Source of the DNA: an uncultured Verrucomicrobiota bacterium
GTDB taxonomy: Bacteria > Auribacterota > JABMQX01
Direction of reading: 5' to 3'
Length of the DNA stretch: 64,000 nt
NCBI GenBank assembly: GCA_964482435.1
Contig: CAYZXL010000003.1
Coordinates: forward strand, 69,472-133,471
Position numbers and translations under genes: made by a program. The notes below the pieces were generated by a model. The model had not been told where the DNA came from. It did not search any database and worked only from the letters and a program-made list of their open reading frames with translations. Within the stretch, counting starts at the first letter, position 1; every line of letters begins with the position of its first letter. Positions 32,997 through 62,161 of this stretch are shown one piece after another.

Positions 32997-33357
32997 GGCT
33001 TTCCCTCCCCTTCGTCCTTTTCCGTCTTTTTGTTTTAGCTACCCTCTCGCGGTATTGCTCTTTCAAAAGCAGCAATCTCATGCTGTACCGATTCCCTGTT
33101 GAATTGTCTCAGAACTGGGTTCGATGTTGCGCCGTCAGGTGACGCTGCAACCGAGCCGGTCCCCACGGGTCTGCTGCATAGACGGGTGTTGGCTTCGGGG
33201 CGACAAAAGAGACGAGGACTCCGGAAAAGACTGGTCTCTGGCATGCGCTGGCGTTGAGTCCCCCGCGATCACACGAGACCCACGTGGGCAAGCCCGGCTG
33301 GACGCACGTCCCCACGGTTTCCTCAGCACCCCTCCGTTTGGAATCGGGGGCGCCAGA

Positions 33358-33408
33358 GTCATCGTGGCACGGGCGTCCCGCCCGTGATTCATGGGCAAGA
33401 TGCCCATG
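33358..33408. repeat. double-hairpin intergenic repeat, copy A
   Basis: CACGGGCG-TCC-CGCCCGTG (33368-33386) followed by CATGGGCA-AGA-TGCCCATG (33390-33408). Confidence 0.6.
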
Positions 33409-33530
33409 CCACATAATAGCTCGACCATGAGCAGTTGAAGGATCACGCACAAGGCTTTCCTCCTGGCACCAGAAAGTATAACCGCGTCCAACGTCCCACG
33501 CAACAAGCGTTTTCACGGGGGCGCGCCTGT

Positions 33531-33585
33531 GTCATCGTGGCACGGGCGTCCCGCCCGTGATACTGTTCATCCGCAACATGCCCAT
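33531..33585. repeat. double-hairpin intergenic repeat, copy B (tandem, 173-bp period)
   Basis: 31-nt core gtcatcgtggcacgggcgtcccgcccgtgat identical to copy A. Homology of about 80 nt including upstream cgggggcgc. Second hairpin ACATG-CCC-CATGT. Confidence 0.6.
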
Positions 33586-33759
33586 GTCACATCTGAACTC
33601 GATAGGACGAGCGGGCCCCGCCTGACTCACGAGCACTCCCCGAAGCGGTTCGACTGGCGGCGCGACAACCGCGGATTGCGTGCGTCGGGTTGAGGGCACA
33701 CGGTTAGACGTCACGCGACGGAATTGCCCCGTGTGCCCGCACAATTGCTTTCGTTCCCA

Positions 33760-35016: not shown

Positions 35017-35360
35017 AAGTCATCCTCCTTTTCTCAAACTGCCTTGCCATACTGTTTCGTTACCCGAAGGGCGGTGGTTATTGTGCCAGAGTTGCGAGGG
35101 ATGCTCAAGGGATTATCCAGACTGGGTGCGACACGCTAAAGGTTCCCCGATGACAATGGGCGGGTTATCCTGTATCATAGACATGGAGCGCCGGGGCGGG
35201 ATTTGGCCCCTCAGACACGCCGGGGCGTTGGTTCAGGGTCTTTCGGCGTCTCAGGAGGCCTCGTGCTCGCCACCAGCGACTCCCCGGCCGGCGAGCTTAG
35301 TACACGAATTCGCAAATTCGACAAGGTATCGGAAACCTCCCCGAGGGCATGGATTTTTTC

Positions 35361-35508
35361 GACAGGATTTACACGATGGCCGGGATCTGAAAGGGAAGGC
35401 GCCAAGCTGCCCCGCCTTCGCGGGGTCGCCCGGCCACGACCAAAACTCATAAAACCCCGCCTTCGGCGGGGGAGTTACAGAATCCTGGACATCCTGTTCA
35501 TCCTGTCA
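35361..35508. repeat. MITE/iteron-like element A with inverted ATCCTGT heptamer arrays
   Basis: Left end GACAGGATttACACGAT. Right end ATCCTGgacATCCTGttcATCCTGTCAaag (heptamers at 9-bp period). About 148 bp. Confidence 0.45.
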
Positions 35509-35631
35509 AAGAAAAATACCTCATTGAATTCATGAACCAGAGCACTTAGTCGTAGGAAACTCCTGGCCGCGAATCCCCGCCGCGGCCGCCGGAGAGTGCG
35601 TATCGGCACGAACTCAAGACGAGAGGTCTTT

Positions 35632-36663
35632 GTGGTAAAAGCGGTCGCCTTGCTATCGGGCGGACTGGACAGCCGCCTGGCAATAAAAGTTGTCAAGCAG
35701 CAAGGGATTGACGTGCACGCGGTCAATTACGTCACGTGTTTTTGCACGTGTACGGCGAGGGGGAGCTGCAAACTGGAGGCCCGCCGCGCCTGCGAGCAAC
35801 TGGACGTCCCATTGAAAGTTTTCGTGATAAGCAAAGAGTTTATCGAGGTCGTCAAGCATCCGATGCATGGGTACGGCAAGAACATGAACCCATGCATTGA
35901 TTGCCGGATTCTGATGTTTCGCATGGCAAAGGGATACATGAAGGAAATCGAAGCATCCTTCCTCATCACCGGGGAGGTTCTTGGGCAGAGGCCGATGTCT
36001 CAGAGGCGGGATGCCATGCAGTTGATTGACAGGGAAGCGGGGGTCGAGGGGCTTGTCCTGCGACCTCTCAGCGCGAAGCATCTCCCGATGTCGCTGCCGG
36101 AGCGCGAAGGATGGGTTGACCGGGAGAGGCTTTTGTCCATAAAAGGACGGTCCAGGAAGGAGCAAATCAGCCTCGCCGAATCATACGGAATCACTGATTA
36201 TCCCTGTGCCGGCGGAGGATGTTTGTTGACGAATGAGGGGTTCGCAGACAAGGTCCGAGACCTCATCGCTCATAAGGATGCAGACCTTAACGACATGGTT
36301 CTTCTGAAAGTCGGAAGGCATTTCCGCCTTCCTCATCGCGGCAAGGCCGTCGTCGGGAGGGATAAGGGTGAAAACCTTCGGATACTCAACCTCGCCAGAG
36401 AGGGCGATGTCATTTTCCGGCCGCACGGCGCTTTGCCGGTTCCGACTGCGTTGCTGAGGGATTCGGATTCCGCCGGTGGAGCGAACGCGTGGGCAAACGA
36501 AGAAGAAATCGCCATCACCGCCGATTTGTGCGTTTCTCATTCGAAGCTGCGGACCGAACCTTACGTCGAAATTGAGTGCTACCGGTGCGAATCCCCATCG
36601 GAGATGAGGGTCATCCAGGCTAAAGCGATGCCCCGGGAAAGGGTTGACGCTCTCAGAATCTGA
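35632..36663 (+). CDS. ThiI-like PP-loop ATP pyrophosphatase lacking a THUMP domain
   Basis: PP-loop SGGLDS. ThiI-like segment NPCIDCRILMFRMAKGYMKEIEASFLITGEVLGQRPMSQR. No N-terminal THUMP domain. The ORF is open from 35596; the chosen GTG start at 35632 is uncertain. Confidence 0.5.
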   Translation: MVKAVALLSGGLDSRLAIKVVKQQGIDVHAVNYVTCFCTCTARGSCKLEARRACEQLDVPLKVFVISKEFIEVVKHPMHGYGKNMNPCIDCRILMFRMAKGYMKEIEASFLITGEVLGQRPMSQRRDAMQLIDREAGVEGLVLRPLSAKHLPMSLPEREGWVDRERLLSIKGRSRKEQISLAESYGITDYPCAGGGCLLTNEGFADKVRDLIAHKDADLNDMVLLKVGRHFRLPHRGKAVVGRDKGENLRILNLAREGDVIFRPHGALPVPTALLRDSDSAGGANAWANEEEIAITADLCVSHSKLRTEPYVEIECYRCESPSEMRVIQAKAMPRERVDALRI

Positions 36664-36701
36664 GCCGGGCGCAGCACGGCAGGCGCACAAGAATTTCTGA
36701 G

Positions 36702-37340
36702 TTGCGCGACGGACGGAGACAACGGATGGACCAGAAGCGGCCGAGCCGAAGAGCGGTAGTTTTTCGCATCACACGTCGCGGGCTTCTCCTGAGGGCCGGC
36801 CTGGCGGTGGCGCTGGTCGCGGCTGTGTGCGTGGTGGCGATGATTGTTAAAGCTCCGAAGCGAGATGTATTCGGCCTCGGGCCGCGGTACGTGCCGAGCC
36901 TCCTTCCGGTCTCTCTCGAAGGAGGATGGGTCTCGTCCGAGTTTGGGATAAGGACCGACCCGATCGCCGGGAACAGGAGAATGCACGAAGGGATTGACCT
37001 TGCCGTGGATGAGGGAGTTCCGGTCAAAGCGGCAGCCAGCGGCAGAGTCGTATTTGCCGGGGGCGGCGGCGGATATGGTAACCTGGTAAGAATTGACCAC
37101 GGCAACGGAATTGAGACGCGGTACGCACACAATTCAGTCCTGAAGGTCAGCACGAGACAACTGGTGACAAAAGGGCAGGTCATCGCGCTTGCCGGACACA
37201 CCGGGCGTGTCAAAGGAAACCCCGGCGACCACCTCCACTACGAGGTCAGGGTGAAGGGCAAGCCGATCAATCCCAGGGACTATCTTCCCCCGTTTGTGGA
37301 AGGAGGGCGCGGAAGAACGTCAGGGCCGCCCGGTCCGTAA
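36702..37340 (+). CDS. M23 family metallopeptidase, membrane-anchored
   Basis: HEGIDLA...(x)n...DHLHYEV with GYGNLVRIDHGNGIETRYAH, the classic M23 HxxxD / HxH motifs. Confidence 0.8.
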   Translation: MRDGRRQRMDQKRPSRRAVVFRITRRGLLLRAGLAVALVAAVCVVAMIVKAPKRDVFGLGPRYVPSLLPVSLEGGWVSSEFGIRTDPIAGNRRMHEGIDLAVDEGVPVKAAASGRVVFAGGGGGYGNLVRIDHGNGIETRYAHNSVLKVSTRQLVTKGQVIALAGHTGRVKGNPGDHLHYEVRVKGKPINPRDYLPPFVEGGRGRTSGPPGP

Positions 37341-37431
37341 AGAAATCGGCCCCCGTGCAGCGTCCAATCGCAGCAGAAGAACTTCCGGTCTGTTAAGTGG
37401 TGCGATTATCAATTCGATTACGTGTTTTTCT

Positions 37432-37599
37432 ATGACAGGATGAACAGGATAGACACGATTCTGTGAAGCCTGTTTGTCCGTTTTCGGTTTCATGTGTTTC
37501 GGTCCGTGGCCGTGGAAGTCCCCAACGCCGAGGGCGCCGCAAAGACGTAGTAGCTTCGTGCCCTCCCCTTAAAATCCCGGCCATCCTGTATATCCTGTC
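37432..37599. repeat. MITE/iteron-like element B with inverted ATCCTGT heptamer arrays
   Basis: Left end GACAGGATgaACAGGATagACACGAT. Right end CATCCTGtatATCCTGTCAaaaaa. About 168 bp. Termini shared with element A but the interior is unrelated. Confidence 0.45.
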
Positions 37600-37656
37600 A
37601 AAAAATCCTCGCCTTTGGCGCGGGTGGTGCGCAAGGCGAGACGAGGGGATGACCGC

Positions 37657-39036
37657 ATGGACGGGAAAAGAATGTCGCCGCAGTCCACTGGAAACGTTAT
37701 TGCCATCGTCGGGCGACCGAACGTCGGCAAGTCGTCGCTGTTCAATCGAATCTTGGGAAAAAGGGTTGCCATTGTAGAAAAGCACAGCGGCACGACGAGA
37801 GACCGCCTCCGCGAGAAGACGACCTGGAAGGATGTCCCTTTCGAGCTTGTGGACACCGGCGGAATCGTTACCGACCCGAAAGAGGAGCTCGCCAGATTGG
37901 TCAAGTTCCAGGCAGAGGTTGCTATTTCAGAAGCGTCAGTCATCCTTTTCGTGGTGGACGTGTCGGAGGGCTTGACTCCTCTCGACATCGAAATAGCCGG
38001 AATACTCCGGAAAGCCGGCCAGAAAAAGGTCATCGTAGTCGTGAACAAGTGCGACTCCGTGGCACGCATGGAATCGGCGCCGGAATTTTATTCGCTGGGC
38101 TTCGAGAAGGTCATTGGGGCATCGGCGGTGCACGGCCTCGGAATCAACTACCTCCTCGACGAGGCAGTCGCTGGCTTGCCCGGGGAAACCGGGGAGGAAA
38201 GAGAGGCTGCGCTCCGGATTGCGGTAATCGGGCAGCCGAACGTCGGGAAGTCAACCTTCATCAACTTCATCCTCGGAGAAGACCGCCTGATCGTCCATGA
38301 TACCCCTGGCACCACCCGGGACTCCATAGACGTCCTCTGCGAGACCGAAGACGGCGAGAAGATTATCTTCATAGACACCGCCGGCATCCGAAGAAAAAGG
38401 AGCATGTCCCGGCCCATCGAAAAACTCGGTTCGCTTCGGGCGGAAAGGTCTATCGGGAATTGCGACGTTGCGGTTCTGATGCTCGACGCCACGAAAGGAC
38501 CAACGACGGGCGATGCGCGAATCGCCCACATCGTCCAGGAAGAACACAAAGGCTGCGTTTTGGTCACGAACAAATGGGACCTCGTGGAACAGACGCCGCA
38601 AGAAGAGGCTGCGGAGTCTGTTTATGAAAAGCTTCCATTTCTTTCGCATTGTCCGATTGTTTTCACGGTCGCCACGATGGGAAAGGGTGTCGTCAGGACG
38701 CTTCAGGCAGCGCGAGAAGTCCACCGCGAATCCATGACGAGAATTCCCACCCCGGTTCTGAACGACCTCTTGCGAGAAGCCCTTCAGGATCAGCCTCCTC
38801 CGCTCGTGCGATCCGCAAACATAGCGGCGCGAAAGGGCGCGCCACCGGCCCGACCGCGAAGGCTGAAAATCTATTACGCGACTCAGACGGGCGTGGCGCC
38901 GCCGCAGTTTCGGCTTTTCGCCAACAATGCGGACCTTGCCACGAAAACCTACGTCAGCTACCTGACAAATCGCATCCGCTCGTCCTTTCCTTTCCCCGGC
39001 AGCCCTATCCTACTGAGCCTGAGAAGTCGGACGTGA
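37657..39036 (+). CDS. der: ribosome-biogenesis GTPase Der (EngA), tandem GTPase domains + KH-like
   Basis: Two G-domains (GRPNVGKSSLFN; GQPNVGKSTFIN) and a C-terminal KH-like domain. Confidence 0.9.
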   Translation: MDGKRMSPQSTGNVIAIVGRPNVGKSSLFNRILGKRVAIVEKHSGTTRDRLREKTTWKDVPFELVDTGGIVTDPKEELARLVKFQAEVAISEASVILFVVDVSEGLTPLDIEIAGILRKAGQKKVIVVVNKCDSVARMESAPEFYSLGFEKVIGASAVHGLGINYLLDEAVAGLPGETGEEREAALRIAVIGQPNVGKSTFINFILGEDRLIVHDTPGTTRDSIDVLCETEDGEKIIFIDTAGIRRKRSMSRPIEKLGSLRAERSIGNCDVAVLMLDATKGPTTGDARIAHIVQEEHKGCVLVTNKWDLVEQTPQEEAAESVYEKLPFLSHCPIVFTVATMGKGVVRTLQAAREVHRESMTRIPTPVLNDLLREALQDQPPPLVRSANIAARKGAPPARPRRLKIYYATQTGVAPPQFRLFANNADLATKTYVSYLTNRIRSSFPFPGSPILLSLRSRT

Positions 39037-39484
39037 CGGAGTACCACGCATAGAGGGGCGTGGACAATTTTGAACGGCGCCCGCAGATTCATCGGGAGCA
39101 AGCTCCGAGAACCGCCCGCAGACTCCGATAATTCAAGACCTTTGCCCACGAAAAGCGGACGTTGGTAGCGCCGCCCGCGCCACATCGGTAGAAGCCTACC
39201 TGCCAGACCGGCAGAATAACGCTCAAACGACCTCGCATATCGCAAACGACTGAGTGCTGGTCTCTTTCACCGCCGCCTCGCGTGCAGTTTGACGCTCACG
39301 GAGCAGCGGCCGAGCCTCGAGGGGGCTGCCCTGCGTCTTTTTCCCCAAGAGACGCCCCTGCACGGCACAAGGCTTGCTTTACAAAAAGCGTCAGTCTCAT
39401 TCGCCCTCTCGCTACGGAGACGGCCCGCCAGGACAAACCGAACGCGGACCAAGAGCACGACAATCTAAGGAGGTTCTGGACCAA

Positions 39485-40456
39485 ATGGAACGTTTGGAAC
39501 GGCAGGAGGGAAACCGAGTCACGAAAGGGATTATCTTCGCGGCAGATGGCGCGGAAGAGCTGCATCCGGCAACACAGGTCCTGGCAAAGGGGCTGATGCC
39601 GGTGTATGACAAGCCAATGGTTTACTATCCCCTTTCGACTCTGATGCTCGCCGGGATCAAGGACATTCTCATCGTTTGCGAACCTCGAAGCCTGATGAGT
39701 TTCATGGAGCTGCTCGGGAATGGTTCTCGCCTGGGAATCAGCATATCCTACGCGGAGCAATCCAGGGACAAAGGCCCCGGCGACGTTTTTCTGGCTGCCG
39801 AACGCTTTATCGGCGAAGACCCGGTGTGCCTCATCCTCGCAGACAGCATTTTCTGCGGCAACCTGAGCTCTCTTCGCGACGCCCTTCAGGTCGAGGAAGG
39901 AGCGACAATCTTCGCCGCCGACGCTAAGGCAAACGAGGGACACGCGGTTGTAGAATTCGATGGCAATGGAAAGGCGATAAGCCTGCACGAAGGCCCCGGC
40001 AGAAAGCAGACCGGCTGGGCCGTCCCGGGACTGTACATGTACGACAACAGGGTCCTCGAGATCGCCGAGCTTTTGGCGCGTATGACCGACGAGCACATGA
40101 GTGTTATGGACGTGAACCGACAATATCTGCTCCGGGGCCGCTTGAAGGTTCGCAAGCTCCCGCGGGATATCGCATGGCTGGAGGCGGGCACCGAGACGGC
40201 GCTTCTGGAAGCAGCGAATTTCGTCGCCAAGTGGGAAAAGCGAACGGGTGTCAAGACGGGATGCATCGAGGAGGCTGCCTTTCAGAGCGGATACATCGCC
40301 GGCGAAAGGCTGGAGATTCTGATTCGCGAGCTTCCGGAAAGCAGTTACCGGGATTATCTTGTCCGTGCAACGGGGAAGGTCCTGCAAGACAGGCGCAAAG
40401 GGGCGGGGAAATCCATCCTTGAATCTTCGGTAGCAGTCACAGGCGGGGCGAGGTGA
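39485..40456 (+). CDS. glucose-1-phosphate thymidylyltransferase (RmlA) homolog with degenerate catalytic motifs
   Basis: Aligns along the whole RmlA length (PVYDKPMVYYPLSTLMLAGI, YAEQ, AVVEFD, WAVPGLY, WLEAGT). The GGxGTRL nucleotide loop is replaced by ADGAEEL and EEKP by HEGP. AAGGAGG RBS 11 nt upstream of the ATG. Confidence 0.65.
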   Translation: MERLERQEGNRVTKGIIFAADGAEELHPATQVLAKGLMPVYDKPMVYYPLSTLMLAGIKDILIVCEPRSLMSFMELLGNGSRLGISISYAEQSRDKGPGDVFLAAERFIGEDPVCLILADSIFCGNLSSLRDALQVEEGATIFAADAKANEGHAVVEFDGNGKAISLHEGPGRKQTGWAVPGLYMYDNRVLEIAELLARMTDEHMSVMDVNRQYLLRGRLKVRKLPRDIAWLEAGTETALLEAANFVAKWEKRTGVKTGCIEEAAFQSGYIAGERLEILIRELPESSYRDYLVRATGKVLQDRRKGAGKSILESSVAVTGGAR

Positions 40457-40498
40457 TTTTGACAACGACTGCTTGAAAGCGGACGGGCTGATCATCGG

Positions 40499-40867
40499 CT
40501 ACGGCAGGACGTGTCCTTTTTCTCCGGCGAGGCTGCATACCGGGTCTTCGCCAACGGCGCCGTACGTGTAGGTCCCACCCGCGGGACATGATGGAGCACC
40601 AGCCTTCAAGAGAGAATTCACCTCGTCCACGTCAACCTCCTCTCCCTGCGCTTTGTGATTCATCAAAGCCCACTGCTCTTTGGCCCCCTCGATGATCCTG
40701 AGGTTATCAATGCAGAGGTTCTTCTGGGCGTCGGCTCGGGCTTTGATGAAAGTCGGGATTGCCAGGGTGGCAAGCAGGCCGATCACGAGGACCACGATCA
40801 TAATCTCAACGAGCGTGAAGCCGCGATTCGACTGCACTCCTCCATCTCCTTGTCGAGTGGATGTCAC
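40499..40867 (-). CDS. prepilin-type N-terminal cleavage/methylation domain protein (pilin/pseudopilin-like), paralog 2
   Basis: Class III signal ...NRG|FTLVEIMIVVLVIGLLA with Glu+5. C-terminal CPAGGTYTYGAVGEDPVCS disulfide pair. Confidence 0.7.
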   Translation of the reverse strand: MTSTRQGDGGVQSNRGFTLVEIMIVVLVIGLLATLAIPTFIKARADAQKNLCIDNLRIIEGAKEQWALMNHKAQGEEVDVDEVNSLLKAGAPSCPAGGTYTYGAVGEDPVCSLAGEKGHVLP

Positions 40868-41000
40868 GGATTCCCCCCATCAGTGCGGATGCTCACTGCC
40901 TTCACTCGTCTCTGCCAGTGCACCGGGCAACGCCACAGCAAGGGGGATGAGACGCAGCTCCCATCCCCCTTCAGGGCACCACTGGCGCGGAACAATTTCG

Positions 41001-41330
41001 TTACGGCAATACGTGCAGCGCGACGCTGCAAGTCGGGTCGGCGCTCACAGCTCCGTATGTGTACGTCCCGCTGGCAGGGCAGTCCGGAGTGCCGCCCTTG
41101 ATATAGGCGTCGACTTCTGCCTGGACGATGGCATCCCCGGTGACCTTCTTGTTGGCCAGCGCCCACTGTTCCTTTGCCGCGTCAATCTGCCTGAGGTTGT
41201 TGATGCAGGCATTCTTCTGGGATTCCGTTCTTGCCTTGATAAAGCTCGGAATCGCGATTGCGGCCAGGAGACCGATGATTGCCACGACAATCATGATCTC
41301 GACGAGCGTGAACCCTTTTCGTCCTCTCAT
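41001..41330 (-). CDS. prepilin-type N-terminal cleavage/methylation domain protein (pilin/pseudopilin-like), paralog 1
   Basis: MRGRKG|FTLVEIMIVVAIIGLLAAIAIP. About 60% identical to paralog 2. C-terminal CPASGTYTYGAVSADPTCS. Confidence 0.75.
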   Translation of the reverse strand: MRGRKGFTLVEIMIVVAIIGLLAAIAIPSFIKARTESQKNACINNLRQIDAAKEQWALANKKVTGDAIVQAEVDAYIKGGTPDCPASGTYTYGAVSADPTCSVALHVLP

Positions 41331-41414
41331 CCTCTGTCCCTCCTTTTTGTGTTAGTTTTCCCGGCGGTAAGGTTTTGTACGTATTCCAGACCGCTCTTTG
41401 CGTAGGGAGGGAGT

Positions 41415-41429
41415 ACAACTTCTGTGCCA
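41415..41429 (-). promoter_or_regulatory. sigma54-like promoter (-24/-12) candidate upstream of pilin paralog 1
   Basis: Minus strand reads TGGCAC-agaag-TTGT. GG at -24 and correct spacing, but the -12 is GT instead of GC. About 85 bp upstream of the ATG. A sigma54 activator gene lies immediately upstream. Confidence 0.3.
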
Positions 41430-41667
41430 GGTGTAGGCTTCATGCTTCTTCTTCGTAACTCGCTCTTGCCGGGGTGCTTAGGTCCTGCCACGCGCTTATA
41501 CCCAACCGACCCTCTTTCTCATCGTTGAAAAAGAAGAGCCATTGGCTTTCTCAGAACTAATATGGGGCAACTCGTCTCCGAGCGGGCCAAGTCCACCCTG
41601 GTAACGCGTGTGGCTACGGCTCACTGGTGAGCCCAGGGCTGTTGTCTTGGCGCCAGGCCGGAAGTAA

Positions 41668-41786
41668 CGCCGCCGTGCCGGCGGCAGTCGTGAGGGCGTC
41701 CCGCCCTCACATTAGAACCACCGCCTTTCATCCCGCCCAAATCGAACCGTGGGCAAGATGCCCCCGAGACAGCCGGCAAGATGCCG
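41668..41786. repeat. double-hairpin intergenic repeat, copy C (covarying stem)
   Basis: GTGAGGGCG-TCC-CGCCCTCAC (41689-41709), then GGGCA-AGA-TGCCC (41750-41762) and CCGGCA-AGA-TGCCGG (41772-41786). Same loop and inner stem as copies A/B, with compensatory outer-stem changes. Confidence 0.55.
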
Positions 41787-42028
41787 GCGTTACAGAGAGA
41801 CGCTCCCCACTGGACCTTGTCCCAGCACTCCCCGTCACGAGCAAATCCCCGCAACATCTCCCACTCAAACTTAGCCGCAGCCCTGGTAACGCCACTCGAC
41901 GGAGGCGACACCTCGCAGCGCAAAGAGGCAGAAAATCGCGGCGGGGGCGATTTGATGATGGAGATGCCCCTTGGGCAGGGCGTGTTTCGGTTCTCCCTGT
42001 AGGAGCGGAGGAAAATGCCGTCAGCGGG

Positions 42029-43378
42029 TCAGAATTCACGAATGTCGAGGCCACTTAGCTTTCGGTAGAGAGAAGGGATGCTGATCCCGAGAATCAGAGC
42101 GGCTTTCTTCTTGTCGCCCTCAGTCTCCCTCAAGACATTCTGAATGTGTACGCGCTCGGAATCTCGCACAACGCTTCTCAAGCTGTGATCGCCGCGTCGT
42201 GTCGTGGCACAGTGCTCGATAAGTCTGGGGGGGAGGTCCTCCGGGTTGATGAGCTCGCTTTCGCATAGAGTAGCGGCTCTCTCTAAGACGTTCTCCAGTT
42301 CTCTGATGTTGCCGGGCCAATCGTACGCCATGAGGAGGTCCAGGGCTTCGGGGCTAACCTTCTTGTCGCCGTTTGCCCGCCTGTTCTGCTGGTTCAGAAA
42401 GTGCCTCACAAGGAGAGGAATGTCCTCTTTCTTTTCCCGAAGAGGTGCGATCTCCACAGGTATCACACTCAGGCGATAGAACAAATCCTCCCTGAACGTC
42501 CCGTTCTTCACGCGTGGGGCGAGTTCCTCATTTGTGGCGGCGATGACCCTGACGTCAATCTTTTTCTGCCTGGTATCCCCCACCCTCTTGATTTCCTTCT
42601 CTTGGAGAACCCTGAGGAGCTTGCTTTGCATCGCGGGGCTCATTGAGCCGATTTCGTCGAGGAAAATCGTCCCCCTGTCAGCGGCGACGAAGACTCCCTC
42701 CTTGTCCGCGTAAGCCCCCGTAAAGGCGCCCTTGGCGTGGCCGAAAAGCTCCGATTCTAAGAGTGTCTCGGGAAGGGCAGCACAGTTGATTGGCTCGAAG
42801 CGTTTGTCCCTCCGCTTGCTGTTGTAATGAATTGCCCGGGCGACGAGTTCCTTGCCGGTGCCGCTTTCGCCGTAGATAAGGATGGTGCTTTCCGTGGGAG
42901 CGACCTTGCGGATGATGGCAAAGAGGTCCTGCATCTGCCTGCTTGTGCCGATGAGCTGATGAAAGCTGTACCTCTCCTGGACCTCCTGCTTGAGTCTGCG
43001 GTTTTCCTGGATGATGGACCTCTGCTCCAGCCCTCGCTGGACGAGGAGGCGCAATTCGTCCATCTTGAAAGGCTTGATCACGTATTCGTAGGCGCCCTTC
43101 TTCATTGCCTCGATTGCGGTCTGAACCGAGGCATAAGCGGTCATCATGATGACGACGATGTCCGAGTCAATCTTCTTAATCTGTTCCAGGACCGCAATGC
43201 CGTCCAGGGGAATCATCTTGATGTCGGCGATTGCCAGGTCAACGCTGTCGGTCCGGATGACGTCGAGTGCCTCCTCGCCGGACAAGGCCGTCAGGACGTC
43301 GTACCCCTCCCTCTTCAACATTATGGAGAGGACGTCGAGAATGCTTTGCTGGTCATCTACGATAAGTATTTTTGCCAT
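42029..43378 (-). CDS. sigma54-dependent response regulator (NtrC/PilR family)
   Basis: Receiver domain (start MAKILIVDDQQSILDVL, D at DLAIADIKM). AAA+ sigma54-interaction domain (GESGTGKELVARAIH, GAFTGA motif, ESELFGH). C-terminal Fis-type HTH. Confidence 0.85.
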   Translation of the reverse strand: MAKILIVDDQQSILDVLSIMLKREGYDVLTALSGEEALDVIRTDSVDLAIADIKMIPLDGIAVLEQIKKIDSDIVVIMMTAYASVQTAIEAMKKGAYEYVIKPFKMDELRLLVQRGLEQRSIIQENRRLKQEVQERYSFHQLIGTSRQMQDLFAIIRKVAPTESTILIYGESGTGKELVARAIHYNSKRRDKRFEPINCAALPETLLESELFGHAKGAFTGAYADKEGVFVAADRGTIFLDEIGSMSPAMQSKLLRVLQEKEIKRVGDTRQKKIDVRVIAATNEELAPRVKNGTFREDLFYRLSVIPVEIAPLREKKEDIPLLVRHFLNQQNRRANGDKKVSPEALDLLMAYDWPGNIRELENVLERAATLCESELINPEDLPPRLIEHCATTRRGDHSLRSVVRDSERVHIQNVLRETEGDKKKAALILGISIPSLYRKLSGLDIREF

Positions 43379-43483
43379 TTCGATAACGCTCCGAGTGAAC
43401 CCACGCGCGGCCGCGCGCTGGACGAGGCGGTCGCAATCATCACCAAATTGCCGCAATTGCGACAGTGAACCTGCATTTGCTTT

Positions 43484-44107
43484 TCAACCCGTACGAGCAA
43501 CGTCGGTTGGCCTCAGTGGTGGAGGCTGCAATGTCGCGTGTTGCCTCCTTCCCGGAATGAGCCGTTCCGAGAGAACCTCCCATTTCTTCGTGTTGAATTC
43601 CGACTCCGAGAGAACGCCCTGCTTCCTCAGCGCATCGAGGCCTTGTAGAAGCTCCAGCGCAGACGCCACCTTGTCTGGGGGCGCCCCCAGGAACAGAGTC
43701 TTCCCGCGTTCAAATTCCTCGGCCGTAACAACGCCCGCCAGGAACAGCCGTCCCAGCCTTTCGATTTCCTGGGCTACGCTCTTCCCGTTTAGAGGAATCG
43801 GGTTAGTGACCTCGACTTTCGCGACGCTATCCTGCCCAATGGTGGCTCGGGCGCAGGCCGCGTTGATGTCGTTCATCAAGGCGACCTCATCGAAAGTCGT
43901 ACGGCCTTTGGAGTTCCTCATTAGCTTGGAGTAGCGACGTCCCAATTCGAGTGTTCTCTCTCGGAGGTCAGGGTTGTTTGGGTCCCGCTTGAGGTTCCCG
44001 AGCGACTCTTGGTATGCCTTTTTTGCCCGGGCCCTTCTGCCGCTCTGCACCGCAAGCGCGACTAGCACCAGCACCATGAAAAACAAAACGCCAGCCACCG
44101 CGTCCAT
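43484..44107 (-). CDS. membrane-anchored protein with two SHOCT-like motifs
   Basis: N-terminal TM (VLFFMVLVLVALAV). Repeats VVTAEEFERGKTLFL and VLSESEFNTKKWEVL resembling the SHOCT short C-terminal domain. Confidence 0.4.
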   Translation of the reverse strand: MDAVAGVLFFMVLVLVALAVQSGRRARAKKAYQESLGNLKRDPNNPDLRERTLELGRRYSKLMRNSKGRTTFDEVALMNDINAACARATIGQDSVAKVEVTNPIPLNGKSVAQEIERLGRLFLAGVVTAEEFERGKTLFLGAPPDKVASALELLQGLDALRKQGVLSESEFNTKKWEVLSERLIPGRRQHATLQPPPLRPTDVARTG

Positions 44108-44213
44108 GTTCTCACCTCCTAACCGCCGAGGCTGAACCCTCTCTCGGCAACACCGGGTTCGCGAGTTCGTTTTTTCGGGAACTGCGGCACTCGGGCGCCC
44201 CGCTGTCGGTGCC

Positions 44214-45980
44214 TTATGGCTGCCGCCGGGCGAGCGTCTCCTGTGCCGGGATGTCCGCTCGGATCACATCCGAACGAGTCTCTTGCCGCACCGCATCGGC
44301 GGAATGGCTCGTCAGGGAGCCCGGGGCTTTGCCTGCTCCCTGCCCCTTCGGAATCACAAGCGCCACCGTGGTCCCTTTCCCTTCCTCGCTGGTGATTTCT
44401 ATCCGTCCGTTGTGCTCTCTGACGATTTTCTCCGCTATGCACAAGCCGATTCCCACGCCTTCTTTCTTTGTCGTGAAAAACGGCTCAAAAACCTTGCTGA
44501 GGGTTTGTGGCGACATGCCGCGGCCGGTATCCGCGACGGTTACAATATAGGAGTCAGTGTCGGCCGGGGAACTCTCCAACTTTATGTAAATAGTGCCGTT
44601 TCCCTCCATCGCCTCCACAGCATTTGAAAGCAAGTTAAGGAAAACCTGCCCCATCTGACATCTATCCGCGGAAACAATCGGTGGCTCCTCCGGCGTGACT
44701 AACTCGACCCGAACGTCTGCCGGCAGCTTCCCTCCCCGCCCGAGCATTTCTATTGATTCCCTGATTATCTCACGAAGATTTTCCTTTTTCATGTCGAGGT
44801 TCCCTTTCCGGGCATAGGCGAGGAAATCTTCGATGATTCTGTTCAAACGAGCCGATTCCCTCAGGACAACCGATAGAAGCTCCTTATTGCTTTCCGACAA
44901 GCCCGGCGACTCCGCGAGCATTTCAATTGACCCGCCGATGGAAGTCAGCGGGTTTCTTATCTCATGTGCTATCCCCGCCGCCAGTTCCCCCGCTGTTCGG
45001 AACTTATCAATCGCCCGAAGCCGCTTTTCCAGCTCCTTGACCTCCGTCAGGTCCGAGAAAACCATCACCTTACCCACAGGCTTGCCCGACCGGTCAAGAA
45101 TCGTCGAAAGATTGAAGCCGACAGGGATCTCCTTCCCCTCAGCGTTGCGAGCCAGGAGCTCTCGCTCGCGAATCCCGGCATCTCCCTTGCGTTCCCGCGG
45201 GTTGTCCAGAGCCTCCTTGAGAGCCCCCATTTGACCGTCCGCGAAGAACTCCATTAGGTTTCGATTATACATCATCTTCGAAGGAACGCCCAGGATTTTT
45301 TCTGCGGCGCGGTTGGCATAGACGATGGCGCTGGAGGTATCCGTCGTGATTAAGCCGCTGTTCATGCTGGAGACAACGTGCTCGTGGAGATTCCTCAACT
45401 CTCTCAGTTCCTCCTTCTCTTTTCTAAGAAGGTTAGCGAGGTATCCGCATAAATAACCAACCATGCAGAAAATGATCGCACGGATGTAAAGGGAGTAAAA
45501 AATCTCCAGATCGCCGGCCCTCTCGCCCGGGGACAGGTGATACCGATGAAAGAGAACAAGGGCTGCGTACAACATGCTGCTCAGAAGAGCGATGGATATG
45601 GTCTGCCGACGATGAAAGAAAAGACTGGCTGTCGTAATTGGAATTATGTAGAGAAAGCCGAAGATGCTCTTCTCCCACCCCGAAAGAGCTACCAGCAGCG
45701 TCACAAGAAACACGTCGGCAAAAATCTGAACGTTTGCGAAGAGCTCGGGGTCGAAGCCCCACTCCAGAAGCAGAACGTAAATCAAAGTCAGCGAGAAAAG
45801 GGCACCGGTAAATAGGTACAGGGAAGGCGCGTAGGTGCGAAAGAACAGCGGCCCAAGGACGAAGACCGCAACCGTCACCAGAAGGCGCATAAGGAGCATC
45901 CGCCGGAGGTTGCCGTTCACCCCGGAGTCAGCCAGCGTGCCCGCGTGGGAGGTGGGGCCGGGTGCCCTTGTTGACTTCAT
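44214..45980 (-). CDS. sensor histidine kinase, PilS-like (multi-TM N-terminus, PAS, HisKA, HATPase_c)
   Basis: About six N-terminal TM helices. PAS (IVYANRAAEKILG). H-box ELAAGIAHEIRNPLTSI. N, G1 and G2 boxes (LLSNAVEAM, DTGRGM, GVGIGL). Start uncertain (45980 or 45899; the ORF is open to 46055). Confidence 0.8.
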   Translation of the reverse strand: MKSTRAPGPTSHAGTLADSGVNGNLRRMLLMRLLVTVAVFVLGPLFFRTYAPSLYLFTGALFSLTLIYVLLLEWGFDPELFANVQIFADVFLVTLLVALSGWEKSIFGFLYIIPITTASLFFHRRQTISIALLSSMLYAALVLFHRYHLSPGERAGDLEIFYSLYIRAIIFCMVGYLCGYLANLLRKEKEELRELRNLHEHVVSSMNSGLITTDTSSAIVYANRAAEKILGVPSKMMYNRNLMEFFADGQMGALKEALDNPRERKGDAGIRERELLARNAEGKEIPVGFNLSTILDRSGKPVGKVMVFSDLTEVKELEKRLRAIDKFRTAGELAAGIAHEIRNPLTSIGGSIEMLAESPGLSESNKELLSVVLRESARLNRIIEDFLAYARKGNLDMKKENLREIIRESIEMLGRGGKLPADVRVELVTPEEPPIVSADRCQMGQVFLNLLSNAVEAMEGNGTIYIKLESSPADTDSYIVTVADTGRGMSPQTLSKVFEPFFTTKKEGVGIGLCIAEKIVREHNGRIEITSEEGKGTTVALVIPKGQGAGKAPGSLTSHSADAVRQETRSDVIRADIPAQETLARRQP

Positions 45981-46006
45981 TGCCGACACGTTCTTGTCCC
46001 CCGGTG

Positions 46007-47215
46007 CTACATATGGACGATGGTGGAAAGTCGGAATATCGGCAGGAACATGCATATCACAATCCCGCCGACGACAATCCCGAGAAAAGCAATGAGAAGA
46101 GGCTCGATCATGGAGGTCAGGCCGCTGACCGCCGCATCCACCTCGGAATCATAGAAGTCGGAAATCTTCGACAGCATCACTTCCAGTTTGCCGGTCTGCT
46201 CTCCGACGGCAATCATCTTGGTGACCATCGGGGGAAACACGTCGCTCGCGGCGAGAGGGCCGGCGATGTTCTCACCCTTCTTGATCTCTTCCATTGCTTG
46301 ATTAACAGCTCGCTCGACGAGCTTATTGCCCGCCGTCCTCGAGACGATGTCGAGGGCGCTGAGGATCGGCACGCCGCTTTTGACGAGAACCGAAAGCGTC
46401 CGGCTGAAACGCGACACAGCCACCTTTCTGAATATTGGGCCGAAGATCGGGAGGTTCACTTTGAATTTGTCAAGGCGCAACCTCCCGGACTCGGTTTTGA
46501 CGTATTTTCTCAAGGCAATGATCCCCACGATGAGGGCGCCGACGCAGAAGGGGAAGTAAGCCCGCATGAAGTTGCTCAGGTTCAAAAGCATCTGCGTGGG
46601 AGTCGGCAAAGCGGAGCCAAAGCTCTCGTAAATCTTACCGAAGACGGGGATGACCTTGATCAAAAGGACGGTGGTGATGATGACGGCCATGCAACTGACG
46701 ATCGCCGGATACATCATGGCGGACTTGACCTTTCGTTTCAGGGCCATGGTGGCTTCCATATAGCTTGCTATCCGGTCGAGAATTTCCGCCAGGGTGCCGC
46801 TGGCCTCTCCGGCCCGCACCATGTTGATGAACAACGAGGAGAAGACTTTCGGGTGAGCCGCCAGGGCATCGGAGAATGTCGCCCCTTCCTCGATGTTTTT
46901 GACTATGTCCTGAAGTACCACCTTCAGGGAAGGGCTTTCCGCTTGCTCGGCGAGAGTGTCGAGAGCCTGGACGAGAGGGAGCCCCGCGTCCACCATCGTC
47001 GCCAGTTGCCTGCTGAATACGACAATGTCTCCTCCCTTTACCTTCCGTTTCCCCTTTTTGATCCCGGTGCCCGAACGTACCTCTTCGGAGACCGAAAGGA
47101 TGATCAGACCCTTGTTCCTGAGAGCGGCGACGACCGCACGCTCGCTCTCCGCTTCCATTGTTGCCAAGATGTCGCGGCCACCTGTGTCTTTGGCAGAGTA
47201 CCTGAAAAGACTCAC
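46007..47215 (-). CDS. type II secretion / type IV pilus inner-membrane platform protein (GspF/PilC family)
   Basis: Two T2SSF repeats. 402 aa, three TM segments. Typical architecture. Confidence 0.85.
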   Translation of the reverse strand: MSLFRYSAKDTGGRDILATMEAESERAVVAALRNKGLIILSVSEEVRSGTGIKKGKRKVKGGDIVVFSRQLATMVDAGLPLVQALDTLAEQAESPSLKVVLQDIVKNIEEGATFSDALAAHPKVFSSLFINMVRAGEASGTLAEILDRIASYMEATMALKRKVKSAMMYPAIVSCMAVIITTVLLIKVIPVFGKIYESFGSALPTPTQMLLNLSNFMRAYFPFCVGALIVGIIALRKYVKTESGRLRLDKFKVNLPIFGPIFRKVAVSRFSRTLSVLVKSGVPILSALDIVSRTAGNKLVERAVNQAMEEIKKGENIAGPLAASDVFPPMVTKMIAVGEQTGKLEVMLSKISDFYDSEVDAAVSGLTSMIEPLLIAFLGIVVGGIVICMFLPIFRLSTIVHM

Positions 47216-47395
47216 GGCTGCATTCCTTTCACTTAGTCAAGAGGTTTACCACGCCCGAAGGTCCCGCCGAAGGCGGGACTAACTTGTCGCCCCGAGAACC
47301 ATCCTGGAAGTAAGTAGAGCAGTAGAGCAGGGGCAAGCCAGTTCCGGGTCTACTCTCTACTCTCCACTGTCTCCTGTCTTGCCCCTGGCGGGCCT

Positions 47396-60295: not shown

Positions 60296-62161
60296 CTACT
60301 TCGGTGCTTCATCCGCCGCGTCCTGTCTTGAGGACTCGCGCTCGGCGATCAACGATTGCTTGCTTATCCCGCACGAAATGTGGTCCCAGGGCAGGACTTC
60401 GTCGTACGCTCGCTCACGACACGCATAGAAATCCGGGTCAATGTTGCTTTCCCGAAACGCTTCCAGCCACGTGTCATACCGAAAATGTTCCGTCCAATCA
60501 TCAAGGCGGCAGCCCTTCTGCCATGCCCGGTAGATGGCCGATGACAGCCGCCTATCACCACGTGAAAAGACAGCTTCCAGGTAGCTTTTGTGAGGGTCGT
60601 GGAACTTGAGTTTTACGTTTTTCTCTTTTATCAAGCGCCTAATATACAGAATCTTGCGCTGAAGGTCAAGAGTGCTGTGGAATTTTTCCCACTGAAATGG
60701 AGTGTGGGCTTTTGGGACGAACGGGGCGATGCTCAAGTTGAGGTGTCCGCGCCTGCCGTCCACCTTCTTCCTGGCGTCGGCAATTTTGTACACAAGCTCC
60801 GCGAGGGCAGCGATGTCCTCGTCGCGTTCTGTCGGGAGGCCAATCATGAAGTAGAGTTTTATCAACCTCCAACCGGCAGCATAGGCAGCTTCGGCGGCGG
60901 CGAGAACGTCCTCCTCCTCCAAATTCTTGTTTATAACCTTTCGGAGACGCGCGGTTGCCGCCTCAATGGCGAGGGTTACGCCAGTCTTTTTCGTTGGCTG
61001 CGTGCGCTCGAGCAGCCTGATGGAGAAGGTGTCTGGCCTGAGAGAAGGGAGAGAGATGGCTGTGCGGTCGCTCCCAAGACACTCAGAGAGACGCAGTACC
61101 ACTTCGTTTATCTCTCGGTGGTCTCCCGTGGAAAGGGAAGAAAGGGAGATTTCCTCGAAGCCGGTTGCCTCAATGAGGCGCTTTGCTCTGCTGATAATTT
61201 CCGAGGCGGGCAATTCCCTCACCGGCCGATAAAGCATCCCGGCCTGACAGAATCGGCACCCCCGCCCGCATCCTCTCATCACCTCCACAACCGCACGGTC
61301 CTGGACAACCTCGATGAACGGCACGATCGGCTTCTCGGGGTACGGTGCCGCGGCAAGGTTCTTGACAGTCCTTTTCCGAACTGTGCCGGGGATGCCTTCC
61401 TCGTTCGGTTCGACGCTCAGGATACTCCCAGAGGATGCAGGCGAGACGCCTGCGCTACAGCCAGGATTGGAATCGTATTCCACCCGGTAGAAGTGCGGGA
61501 CGTACATTCCCTCGTATTTCGTGGCAAGCGCCCGAAGAAAGTCAATCCTCGCGCGTGGATTCGACCCAATCCGTTCCCGGAATCCTCCCGCTCGGAACTC
61601 TTGCAGGATTTCTACAATCGCCTCCTCCCCTTCGCCCACGACGAACAGGTCAATAAACTCCCACATCGGCTCCGGCACAAATGCGCCGAGTCCTCCCGCA
61701 ATGACTATGGGCCCGCCCGCCTTGCACCTTTCTTCAAAACGAAGCGGGATGCCTCCTAAGTCCAGCATGTTCAAAACGTTCGTGTAGCAGAGCTCGTATC
61801 CAACGGAGAAGCCCACGATGTCGAAATCTTTCAGCGGAGTGAGACTCTCGAGGGAATAAAGCGGGATTGACTTCTCGCGCATTCTTTCTTCCATGTCAAC
61901 CCAGGGAGCGAAGACCCTTTCCGCGACAGCCCAATCCAGCCGGTTGACGATTTCGTATAGGATTTGGATGCCGAGGTTGCTCATCCCTATCTCGTAGGTG
62001 TCGGGGAAGGCAATGGCAAAACTGACCTCGACGTCAGCACGCGATTTATTGACCGCGTTCAATTCCGAACCGATGTATCGCCCGGGGCGTACAACTTTCG
62101 GCAGGACTTCCGCCTCCAGAAGCCTGGCAAGGTCCGATGCCTTTAGCTTTATTGTGCTCAC
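60296..62161 (-). CDS. B12-binding-domain radical SAM protein (TIGR03960 family)
   Basis: N-terminal B12-binding-like domain. CxxxCxxC cluster MRGCGRGCRFCQAG. 621 aa. Confidence 0.8.
   Translation of the reverse strand: MSTIKLKASDLARLLEAEVLPKVVRPGRYIGSELNAVNKSRADVEVSFAIAFPDTYEIGMSNLGIQILYEIVNRLDWAVAERVFAPWVDMEERMREKSIPLYSLESLTPLKDFDIVGFSVGYELCYTNVLNMLDLGGIPLRFEERCKAGGPIVIAGGLGAFVPEPMWEFIDLFVVGEGEEAIVEILQEFRAGGFRERIGSNPRARIDFLRALATKYEGMYVPHFYRVEYDSNPGCSAGVSPASSGSILSVEPNEEGIPGTVRKRTVKNLAAAPYPEKPIVPFIEVVQDRAVVEVMRGCGRGCRFCQAGMLYRPVRELPASEIISRAKRLIEATGFEEISLSSLSTGDHREINEVVLRLSECLGSDRTAISLPSLRPDTFSIRLLERTQPTKKTGVTLAIEAATARLRKVINKNLEEEDVLAAAEAAYAAGWRLIKLYFMIGLPTERDEDIAALAELVYKIADARKKVDGRRGHLNLSIAPFVPKAHTPFQWEKFHSTLDLQRKILYIRRLIKEKNVKLKFHDPHKSYLEAVFSRGDRRLSSAIYRAWQKGCRLDDWTEHFRYDTWLEAFRESNIDPDFYACRERAYDEVLPWDHISCGISKQSLIAERESSRQDAADEAPK

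What the first reader, a model, noticed from the sequence alone, without database searches (positions are those of the whole stretch)
41660..41800. Third copy of the double-hairpin element with compensatory stem changes, in the PilR-to-pilin intergenic region
Copy C has GTGAGGGCG-TCC-CGCCCTCAC. It keeps the loop TCC and inner stem GGGCG/CGCCC of copies A/B. The outer stem changes from CAC/GTG to GTGA/TCAC on both sides, so pairing is preserved. It is followed by GGGCA-AGA-TGCCC and CCGGCA-AGA-TGCCGG hairpins with the same AGA loop. Covariation argues for selection on structure. The position suggests a role in transcript termination or stability, or as a regulator binding site, between the sigma54 activator and the pilin genes.
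Basis: seen in the sequence. Interest (0 to 1): 0.6.

Follow-up and report, generated by a model that had tools for sequence, protein, structure and literature searches.

The report
Mobile REP-type palindromic repeat cluster
The hairpins between the pilR-like regulator and the pilin gene are one copy of a mobile, GTAG-tagged palindromic repeat (a REP/BIME-type element) that comes and goes between near-identical genomes, and are not a conserved pilin control site.

Summary
GTGAGGGCG-TCC-CGCCCTCAC lies at 41690-41710 and two AGA-loop hairpins follow.

Copy C (41664-41793) is a four-unit inverted composite. It aligns end to end with 20 composites from Acidobacteriota/Terriglobia MAGs. Copies A and B are a two-unit GTGGCA...TGCCAC variant of the same superfamily. 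The shared unit is 5'-GTRG-C-(8-bp GC stem, core GGGCR)-TCY-(stem)-3', which is the anatomy of GTAG-tagged REPs.

Stem covariation is real at family level, and G.T pairs are rare, so it does not point to an RNA-specific constraint.

A near-identical relative (proteins 96-98% identical) lacks copy A. It lacks a 36-nt in-frame unit inside a radical-SAM gene. It has about 400 nt of unrelated sequence where copy C sits. The sigma54 promoter and an upstream repeat block are conserved in all five orthologous spacers.

In another genome a Y1 (RAYT-like) transposase is flanked by exactly the copy A/B hairpin.

Verdict: a new member of a known kind. The core motif recurs in at least 14 phylum-level groups, which is a modest curiosity. 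A local effect on the pilR 3' end is possible but untested.

The parts
41664..41688 (+). Outer-left REP unit of copy C: head GTAA(C) at 41664-41668 and hairpin GCCGCCG-TGC-CGGCGGC at 41669-41685. The loop is TGC instead of the family's TCY.
   Evidence: It aligns with the first hairpin of 20 Acidobacteriota composites. The covariance model does not detect it, because of its deviant loop.
41686..41710 (+). Inner-left REP unit of copy C: head GTCG and hairpin GTGAGGGCG-TCC-CGCCCTCAC at 41690-41710.
   Evidence: Covariance model R1 gives 31.3 bits, E=2.3e-5.
41711..41750 (.). Central spacer of copy C. It is about 34 nt longer than in the related composites. It holds a half-unit remnant, TCCCGCCC, at 41731-41738.
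   Evidence: Direct repeat D3. Alignments show the extra 34 nt only in the window.
41751..41771 (-). Inner-right REP unit of copy C, read on the minus strand: head GTCT (plus-strand AGAC at 41767-41770) and a short hairpin GGGCA-AGA-TGCCC at 41751-41763.
   Evidence: Partial model match of 14.9 bits, E=0.25. It aligns with hairpin 3 of the composites.
41770..41794 (-). Outer-right REP unit of copy C, read on the minus strand: head GTAA (plus-strand TTAC at 41790-41793) and hairpin GCCGGCA-AGA-TGCCGGC at 41772-41788.
   Evidence: R1 gives 30.8 bits, E=3e-5.
33363..33387 (+). Copy A, left unit: GTGG-CACGGGCG-TCC-CGCCCGTG.
   Evidence: R1 gives 37.1 bits. Absent from the near-identical relative L211. 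An independent Logan contig that is 100% identical to the window ends exactly here, at 33387.
33389..33413 (-). Copy A, right unit, inverted: GTGG-CATGGGCA-TCT-TGCCCATG on the minus strand. With the left unit it forms a heads-out doublet.
   Evidence: R1 gives 35.6 bits. Absent from L211.
33536..33560 (+). Copy B, left unit. Its hairpin and head are identical to those of copy A's left unit.
   Evidence: R1 gives 37.1 bits. Present in the relative as well (L211 3341-3365).
33568..33592 (-). Copy B, decayed right unit: plus-strand CATCCGCAACATGCCCATGTCAC. The stem no longer pairs.
   Evidence: It is also decayed, in a different way, in the relative.
61435..61459 (-). Single REP unit inside a gene: GTAG-C-GCAGGCG-TCT-CGCCTGC on the minus strand. 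It is part of a 36-nt in-frame insertion in the TIGR03960-type radical-SAM gene (60296-62161, minus strand).
   Evidence: R1 gives 32.3 bits. The 12-aa insert (approximately PGCSAGVSPASS; boundary ambiguous by a residue) is absent from all six aligned homologues, including the closest relative P0121 (96-98% identical). The DNA alignment shows a clean 36-nt insertion.
41414..41429 (-). Context, not part of the element: a sigma54-type promoter TGGCAC-N5-TTGTA upstream of the pilin gene.
   Evidence: Conserved as TGGCAY-N5-TTGT in all five orthologous spacers. The promoter assignment is inferred from the consensus.
41514..41556 (-). Context, not part of the element: a conserved block TTCTGAGAA ... 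TTTTCA-N-ATGAGAA, about 85-140 nt upstream of the promoter. It is the likeliest activator/IHF region.
   Evidence: Conserved across relatives whose PilR is 78-97% identical. The function is inferred.

Best explanation
Copy C is a BIME-like composite of four REP units, two facing two with heads outward. It belongs to the GTAG-tagged repetitive extragenic palindrome superfamily. Copies A and B are two-unit doublets of a sister subfamily.

Each unit is a 5' tetranucleotide tag (GTAG, GTGG or GTAA) followed by a perfect 7-9 bp GC-rich stem with core GGGCR, loop TCY and return arm YGCCC.

By analogy with characterised REP/RAYT systems, such units fold as hairpins in single-stranded DNA. A HUH/Y1 tyrosine transposase (RAYT/TnpA-REP) encoded elsewhere in the genome recognises tag plus hairpin and cleaves and rejoins them. 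The units are thereby copied or lost.

Shown here: the unit anatomy, the inverted pairing of units, stem covariation, presence/absence polymorphism against a near-identical genome, an in-frame insertion inside a gene, and a Y1 transposase flanked by the same hairpin in another genome.

Inferred: that a RAYT in the source genome mobilises these copies, and that this proceeds through single-stranded DNA.

At this locus the composite sits in the non-conserved stretch between the pilR stop codon and the conserved pilin upstream region. Any effect on the pilR mRNA 3' end would be a side effect or a later co-option.
For: 1. Unit anatomy. 364 family hairpins from 118 loci were aligned on the loop. 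G is 90% conserved at -13, T/G at -12, R at -11 and G at -10, then C and an 8-bp stem with GGGC-R / Y-GCCC and loop TCY. TCC, TCT, GGA and AGA loops make up 369 of 841 perfect hairpins in those loci. None of the four is among the ten commonest loops in the shuffled control. [quoted passage not shown] GTGG heads and head-to-head dimers in PVC bacteria are described in PMC3733652.

2. Copy C aligns end to end with 20 four-hairpin composites from Acidobacteriota/Terriglobia MAGs.

3. Covariation is shown.

4. Mobility, judged against a relative from JGI sample 3300035179 whose proteins are 96-98% identical:
- Copy A is absent there and copy B is shared.
- The radical-SAM unit is a clean 36-nt insertion, absent from all homologues.
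- The copy C zone is about 400 nt of non-homologous sequence between conserved flanks.
- Only one canonical unit is found in 38.8 kb of the relative.

5. REP-transposase linkage. In L031 a Y1_Tnp ORF (Pfam PF01797, E=4.8e-7) is flanked 5' by GTGG-CACGGGCG-TCC-CGCCCGTG. On its 3' side are an inverted unit and a doublet.

6. All window copies outside genes lie between co-directional genes.
Against: - No Y1 transposase lies in the 64-kb window.
- The genome-wide copy number in the source organism could not be counted.
- The heads of copy C's inner units (GTCG, GTCT) and outer units (GTAA) depart from GTAG.
- Hairpin 0 has a TGC loop and is missed by the covariance model.
- The same core sequence in many phyla is unusual for REPs, which are usually lineage-specific.
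- The genome scan fixed both cores, so only the heads, outer stems and neighbouring units are unbiased.
Confidence: 0.85

Rival explanations
1. The hairpin cluster acts as an RNA element at the 3' end of the pilR transcript. On the minus strand it would read as two TCT-loop hairpins followed by GGA-loop and GCA-loop hairpins. It would block 3' exonucleases or attenuate read-through into the sigma54-controlled pilin gene. REP units would have been co-opted for this role.
For: - The region folds far better than shuffles on both strands (z = -4.2 and -4.6).
- All five orthologous pilR-pilin spacers carry some GC-rich palindromic repeat downstream of pilR.
- REPs are reported to act as context-dependent 3'UTR regulators in E. 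coli (abstract of 10.64898/2026.03.23.713779, seen). They lie mostly downstream of genes (PMC3733652).
Against: - The elements in the five spacers differ in family, number, orientation and distance from the stop codon (8 to about 250 nt).
- The 97% relative has unrelated sequence at this place.
- No U-tract follows any hairpin.
- G.T pairs are rare, so nothing points to an RNA-specific constraint.
- No Rfam family matches.
Confidence: 0.1
2. The palindromes are DNA binding sites (an enhancer/UAS) for the PilR-like sigma54 activator or another regulator of the pilin promoter.
For: - The element lies 235-380 bp upstream of the pilin sigma54 promoter, on the activator's side.
- Activators of this class bind inverted repeats (established knowledge).
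Against: - It is not conserved. A relative with 97% identical PilR has no such sequence there. The promoter and the TTCTGAGAA/ATGAGAA block are conserved in all five relatives.
- The same units occur between unrelated genes (33363-33592) and inside a radical-SAM gene (61435-61459).
- They also occur in at least 14 phylum-level groups.
Confidence: 0.03
3. The hairpins are chance GC-rich palindromes, or the result of simple local duplication without any family behind them.
For: Copies A and B are 173 bp apart. They share a 31-nt identical block and about 20 nt of flank similarity that other loci do not share.
Against: - The core 13-mer occurs three times against 0.18 expected.
- Copy C matches a 96-nt composite in 20 other genomes.
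- Copy A has an intact second hairpin, whereas copy B's is decayed in both genomes.
Confidence: 0.02

Closest known systems
GTAG-tagged REPs (Di Nocera et al. 2013, PMC3733652), including the GTGG-headed GTAG-20 family of Opitutus terrae
   Same: - A 5' unpaired GTAG or GTGG tag, a 6-9 bp GC-rich perfect stem and a 2-3 nt loop of the TY type.
- Head-to-head dimers with short spacers.
- Location between co-directional genes.
- In-frame copies inside genes.
- Occurrence in PVC bacteria, Chloroflexi, Cyanobacteria and Proteobacteria.
   Different: - I could not see that paper's Figure 1, and its supplements hold no matching string. Identity with any numbered family is therefore unverified.
- The four-unit dimer-of-dimers composite may go beyond what was described. 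So may the sharing of one core (GGGCR-TCY-YGCCC) across at least 14 phylum-level groups.
BIME/REPIN-RAYT (REPtron) systems of E. coli, Pseudomonas and Stenotrophomonas (PMC8266576, PMC3116915, PMC2817692)
   Same: - A REP plus an inverted REP separated by a linker.
- Short perfect palindromes, as in group 3 REPs.
- A Y1/HUH transposase flanked by cognate units, seen in L031.
- Presence/absence polymorphism between close relatives.
   Different: - The transposase link is shown only in another genome.
- No activity was tested.
- REPIN families are normally confined to a genus, whereas this core recurs across phyla.
Intrinsic (Rho-independent) terminators
   Same: A GC-rich hairpin downstream of a gene.
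   Different: - No T/U tract follows.
- Units are paired in inverted orientation.
- A copy also lies inside a coding sequence.
NtrC/PilR-type upstream activator sequences
   Same: Inverted repeats upstream of a sigma54 promoter.
   Different: - Not conserved with the regulator or the promoter.
- The same units are dispersed at unrelated loci.

Membership tests
REP (repetitive extragenic palindrome), GTAG superfamily | A small palindrome (20-50 nt) preceded by a conserved 5' tetranucleotide, usually GTAG | tested here: met
   Family profile: G 90% at -13, then T/G, R and G, then an 8-bp stem. Heads in the window are GTGG (A and B), GTAG (61435-61459), GTAA (outer units of C) and GTCG/GTCT (inner units of C).
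REP (repetitive extragenic palindrome), GTAG superfamily | High copy number, dispersed through the genome, mostly between genes | tested here: inconclusive
   The window has 6 clear and 2-3 degenerate units at 4 sites in 64 kb. Three sites are intergenic and one is inside a gene. The source genome as a whole could not be counted.
BIME / REPIN | A REP and an inverted REP, in opposite orientation, separated by a short variable linker | tested here: met
   Copy A has a plus unit at 33363-33387 and a minus unit at 33389-33413. Copy C has two plus units and two minus units with heads outward.
REPtron (REP with its RAYT/TnpA-REP) | A Y1/HUH transposase gene flanked by cognate REPs | tested here: inconclusive
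   Met in another genome. L031 has a Y1_Tnp ORF (PF01797, E=4.8e-7) flanked by the copy A/B hairpin on the 5' side and by an inverted unit plus a doublet on the 3' side. L050 holds a copy-C-type composite and has a Y1_Tnp ORF 4.4 kb away that is not flanked by units. None was found in the window.
REPtron (REP with its RAYT/TnpA-REP) | The transposase binds and cleaves the single-stranded REP, and this depends on the tag | not testable with these tools
   This needs biochemistry, such as the cleavage and strand-transfer assay of PMC8266576.
Mobile element (general) | Presence/absence polymorphism between close relatives, with clean boundaries | tested here: met
   A 36-nt in-frame insertion. 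Copy A is absent from L211. The copy C zone is replaced in L119.
Structured RNA family (Rfam) | A match to a curated covariance model | tested here: not met
   No match at gathering thresholds over the whole window. No relevant match at E<=1 over 33000-42100.
Intrinsic terminator | A GC-rich hairpin followed by a T tract | tested here: not met
   The scan of 41300-42100 finds no site at the element.
PilR/NtrC enhancer site | Conserved together with the regulator and its target promoter in orthologous loci | tested here: not met
   The element is variable, while the promoter and a different upstream block are conserved.

The most novel reading that the evidence does not exclude
One REP sequence code (tag GTRG, core GGGCR-TCY-YGCCC, closing pair switching between G-C and A-T) is kept in at least 14 phylum-level groups. 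These include Acidobacteriota, Planctomycetota, Verrucomicrobiota, Kiritimatiellia, Latescibacterota, Chloroflexota, Cyanobacteria, Ignavibacteria, Binatia, Hydrogenedentota and several Proteobacteria. Only the tag and the outer stem are lineage-specific. This could mean a single ancient or widely transferred RAYT lineage with a fixed recognition code. Alternatively it could mean a hairpin read by a universal host factor. Either would be a breadth not described for REPINs, which are usually confined to a genus.
Probability: 0.25. Interest if true: 0.5.

Novelty: new member of a known kind. Interest (0 to 1): 0.27.

Why it matters
Its main value is as a caution. Strong hairpins with clean compensatory changes next to a regulator look like a regulatory RNA or an operator. 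Here they are mobile palindromic repeats, and the real conserved pilin control region lies 110-250 nt further on.

The data also give three dated gain or loss events between two near-identical uncultured genomes. This suggests the repeat family is currently active in this lineage.

The wide sharing of one core motif across phyla could serve as a handle for tracing RAYT/REP co-evolution in uncultured bacteria.

Tried and rejected
- Rfam at gathering thresholds and at E<=1: nothing relevant.
- tRNA/tmRNA scan: none.
- Terminator and sigma70 promoter scan of 41300-42100: no site at the element.
- My first sigma54 guess (TGGCAG-N5-AAGCA at 41475-41490) was dropped. It is not conserved, whereas TGGCAC-N5-TTGTA at 41414-41429 is.
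- Literature search for the core strings found only unrelated primers. The supplements of PMC3733652 hold none of the strings.
- Exact look-up of the pilin protein: not on record.
- Metagenome scan with the DUF1080 protein gave 80 loci. None was syntenic with the Band7 gene, so it could not be used for copies A and B. The syntenic relative was reached instead through a cluster member of the Band7 protein.
- The Band7 homologue with 80% identity (L209) is not syntenic.
- Viral contigs gave a single hit, so phages are not the vehicle.
- An HMM built from three Y1 transposases found no further RAYT near the elements and none in the window.
- ORFs overlapping the element (41627-42058 plus strand; 33109-33516 minus strand) have no Pfam match and are taken as spurious.
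- The CsrA-site idea (GGA loops) was considered from memory. It was not pursued, because half the loops are AGA/TCY and units occur in both orientations.

Full report
**Observation**

- GTGAGGGCG-TCC-CGCCCTCAC is at 41690-41710.
- GGGCA-AGA-TGCCC is at 41751-41763.
- GCCGGCA-AGA-TGCCGGC is at 41772-41788.
- The 13-mer GGGCGTCCCGCCC occurs three times in the window (33371, 33544, 41694), against 0.18 expected.
- Perfect hairpins with a stem of at least 7 bp and a 3-nt loop number 14, against a mean of 5.0 in Markov simulations. Seven of the 14 belong to this family.
- The region folds well beyond shuffles as RNA on either strand and as DNA (z = -4.2, -4.6 and -5.9).

**Context**

All of these genes are on the minus strand.
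- PilS-like kinase: 44214-46055.
- A SHOCT-domain ORF: 43484-44107.
- PilR-like sigma54 activator: 42029-43378, 449 aa as in its homologues.
- A 698-nt spacer.
- A pilin (41001-41330) and a second pilin-like gene (40499-40867).

Copies A and B lie in a 763-nt spacer between a DUF1080 gene (33760-35016) and a Band7 gene (31005-32996). Both of those genes are also on the minus strand.

**What the thing is**

I scanned one genome per species for GGGCGTCCCGCCC, a gap of 4-34 nt, then GGCAAGATGCC. They come from at least 14 phylum-level groups. Only one hit came from 2.9 million viral contigs.

The parts the pattern left free are informative.
- Each core is extended by about three further base pairs that differ between lineages.
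- The pair is bracketed by inverted tags: GTGGCA...TGCCAC, GTAGCA...TGCTAC, GGGAGCG...CGCTCCC, GGGATCG...CGATCC and GTGTCG...CGACAC.

I aligned 364 family hairpins on the loop. The unit is 5'-G(90%)-T/G-R-G-C-R-N-GGGC-R-[TCY]-Y-GCCC-N-Y-G-3'. Loops TCC, TCT, GGA and AGA account for 369 of 841 perfect hairpins in these loci. None of the four is among the ten commonest loops in the shuffled control.

This is the anatomy of a REP. [quoted passage not shown] GTGG-headed families, head-to-head dimers and occurrence in PVC bacteria, Chloroflexi and Cyanobacteria are described in PMC3733652.

**Copy C re-read**

Copy C reads as follows:

GTAAC[GCCGCCG-TGC-CGGCGGC]A-GTC[GTGAGGGCG-TCC-CGCCCTCAC] - 40 nt - [GGGCA-AGA-TGCCC]CCGAGACA[GCCGGCA-AGA-TGCCGGC]GTTAC

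That is two units facing two units, with heads outward. It aligns end to end with 20 composites from Acidobacteriota/Terriglobia MAGs. Their consensus is GTAGC-GCCGCCG-TCC-CGGCGGC-TGTC-..-GGGCG-TCC-CGCCC-..-GAGGGCA-AGA-TGCCCTC-GGGACA-GCCGGCA-AGA-TGCCGGC-GCTAC. The window copy has about 34 extra nt in the central spacer, including a half-unit remnant.

Copies A and B are the two-unit GTGGCA...TGCCAC type seen in Hydrogenedentota, Ignavibacteria and other loci. Copy B's second unit is decayed.

A covariance model of the unit finds six clear units in the window (E <= 3e-5), one weak match and nothing else.

**Covariation**

Sequences were selected only by the fixed core. The three positions outside it pair in 110/122, 120/122 and 92/122 unique sequences. 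Two to four Watson-Crick types occur at each position. Shuffle means are 55, 88 and 62, and pairing stops at the fourth position.

On the 21-sequence composite alignment:
- 96.2% of cells pair, against 90.5% in shuffles (0 of 500 shuffles reached it).
- 45 cells carry double-sided changes, against 19.5 (0 of 500).
- The covariation score is 0.172, against at most 0.049 for slid partners.
- Seven pairs covary, including the loop-closing pair, which switches between A-T and G-C.

G.T pairs are about 4% of paired cells. The pairing is therefore almost entirely Watson-Crick, as expected of a DNA palindrome. An RNA role is not excluded, but nothing points to one.

**Mobility**

A relative from JGI metagenome 3300035179 (loci L119, L127, L211) encodes proteins 96-98% identical to the window's.
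1. The radical-SAM protein of the window carries a 12-aa insert (approximately PGCSAGVSPASS; boundary ambiguous by a residue) absent from all six aligned homologues. The DNA shows a clean 36-nt insertion containing GTAGC-GCAGGCG-TCT-CGCCTGC.
2. In the DUF1080-Band7 spacer, copy B is shared. Copy A is missing from the relative, which has 18 unrelated nt there. The flanks are almost identical.
3. In the pilR-pilin spacer the first 56 nt and the last roughly 245 nt are conserved. The middle roughly 400 nt, which holds copy C, is non-homologous. In the relative that stretch holds a different GTGGCAT...ATGCCAC palindromic element.
4. Model R1 finds one unit in 38.8 kb of the relative.
5. A short-read (Logan) contig identical to the window ends exactly at copy A's hairpin. 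This is expected of a repeat.

**Transposase link**

The E. coli RayT sequence and an HMM built from three Y1 transposases were run over all loci. They found Y1 transposase ORFs in two of the element-bearing loci. Both were confirmed as Pfam Y1_Tnp.

In L031 the ORF is preceded by GTGG-CACGGGCG-TCC-CGCCCGTG, which is exactly the copy A/B unit. It is followed by an inverted unit, CTTGGCCA-AGA-TGGCCAAG-CCAC, and then by a doublet. This is the REPtron arrangement.

In L050, which carries a copy-C-type composite, the Y1 gene is 4.4 kb away and is not flanked by units. The window contains no Y1 gene.

**Why it is not a pilin control site**

Five orthologous spacers were compared, from genomes whose PilR is 78-97% identical.
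- All keep TGGCAY-N5-TTGT (window 41414-41429).
- All keep an upstream TTCTGAGAA ... TTTTCA-N-ATGAGAA block (window 41514-41556).
- The palindromic repeats between the pilR stop codon and that block differ in family, number, orientation and position. They lie 8 nt, 40 nt, about 125 nt, 236 nt and about 250 nt from the stop codon.
- No T-tract terminator lies at the composite.

Every spacer carries some such repeat downstream of pilR. That fits the known preference of REPs for the 3' side of genes (PMC3733652). It leaves room for a generic effect on the mRNA 3' end, which I rate at about 0.1.

**Verdict**

The covariation is real at family level. The element is a REP/BIME-type mobile palindromic repeat, a new member of a known kind. 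It is not a locus-specific regulator site or a novel structured RNA.

The residual curiosity is that one core motif is shared across many phyla.

**Limits**
- The genome scan fixed both cores.
- The published family figure could not be read, so identity with a numbered GTAG family is unverified.

Noticed in passing
window 61435-61459 (in gene 60296-62161, minus strand): A single REP unit sits in frame inside a TIGR03960-type radical-SAM gene, in the linker between its two Pfam domains. It adds 12 aa (approximately PGCSAGVSPASS; boundary ambiguous by a residue) that no homologue has.
   Followed up: yes
window 43379-44213 (ORF 43484-44107, minus strand): A segment of roughly 760 nt or more, encoding a SHOCT-domain protein, lies between pilS and pilR. 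In the near-identical relative the two genes are 71 nt apart, and the 3' end of pilS also differs.
   Followed up: partly
window 41414-41429 and 41514-41556 (minus strand): A conserved sigma54-type promoter with an unusual -12 element (TTGT instead of TTGC). Upstream of it is a conserved TTCTGAGAA/ATGAGAA repeat block, which is probably the true PilR/IHF region of the pilin gene.
   Followed up: partly
window 35455-35471, 47261-47279, 51826-51842; also L119 5351-5987: A second kind of hairpin, (C/T)CCGCC-TTC/GAA-GGCGG(G/A), of the cUUCGg-loop type. It lies in or near intergenic regions without a T tract. Similar TCCCGCC-TTC-GGCGGGA hairpins, flanked by GTGGCAT...ATGCCAC, fill the relative's pilR-pilin spacer.
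   Followed up: no
L031 867-4454 (minus strand of the locus): The Y1 transposase and its flanking REP units sit inside a 1196-codon stop-free frame that otherwise looks like a helicase-type protein. The whole REPtron appears to be embedded in, or fused with, a large gene.
   Followed up: partly
L211 3430-3555 (relative) versus window about 33450: The relative has a 124-nt insertion between the positions of copies B and A that the window lacks. This is a further indel in the same spacer.
   Followed up: no
L122 2729-2802: A head-to-head REP doublet (two R1 hits of 31.9 bits) lies within the called 3' end of the pilS gene of a relative whose PilR is 79% identical.
   Followed up: no
window 33340-33362 and 33513-33535: Copies A and B share about 20 nt of extra similarity beyond the REP head (GGGGGCGC..AG.GTCATC). 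Other loci do not share it. This hints that one arose from the other locally, or that the mobilised unit is longer in this genome.
   Followed up: partly
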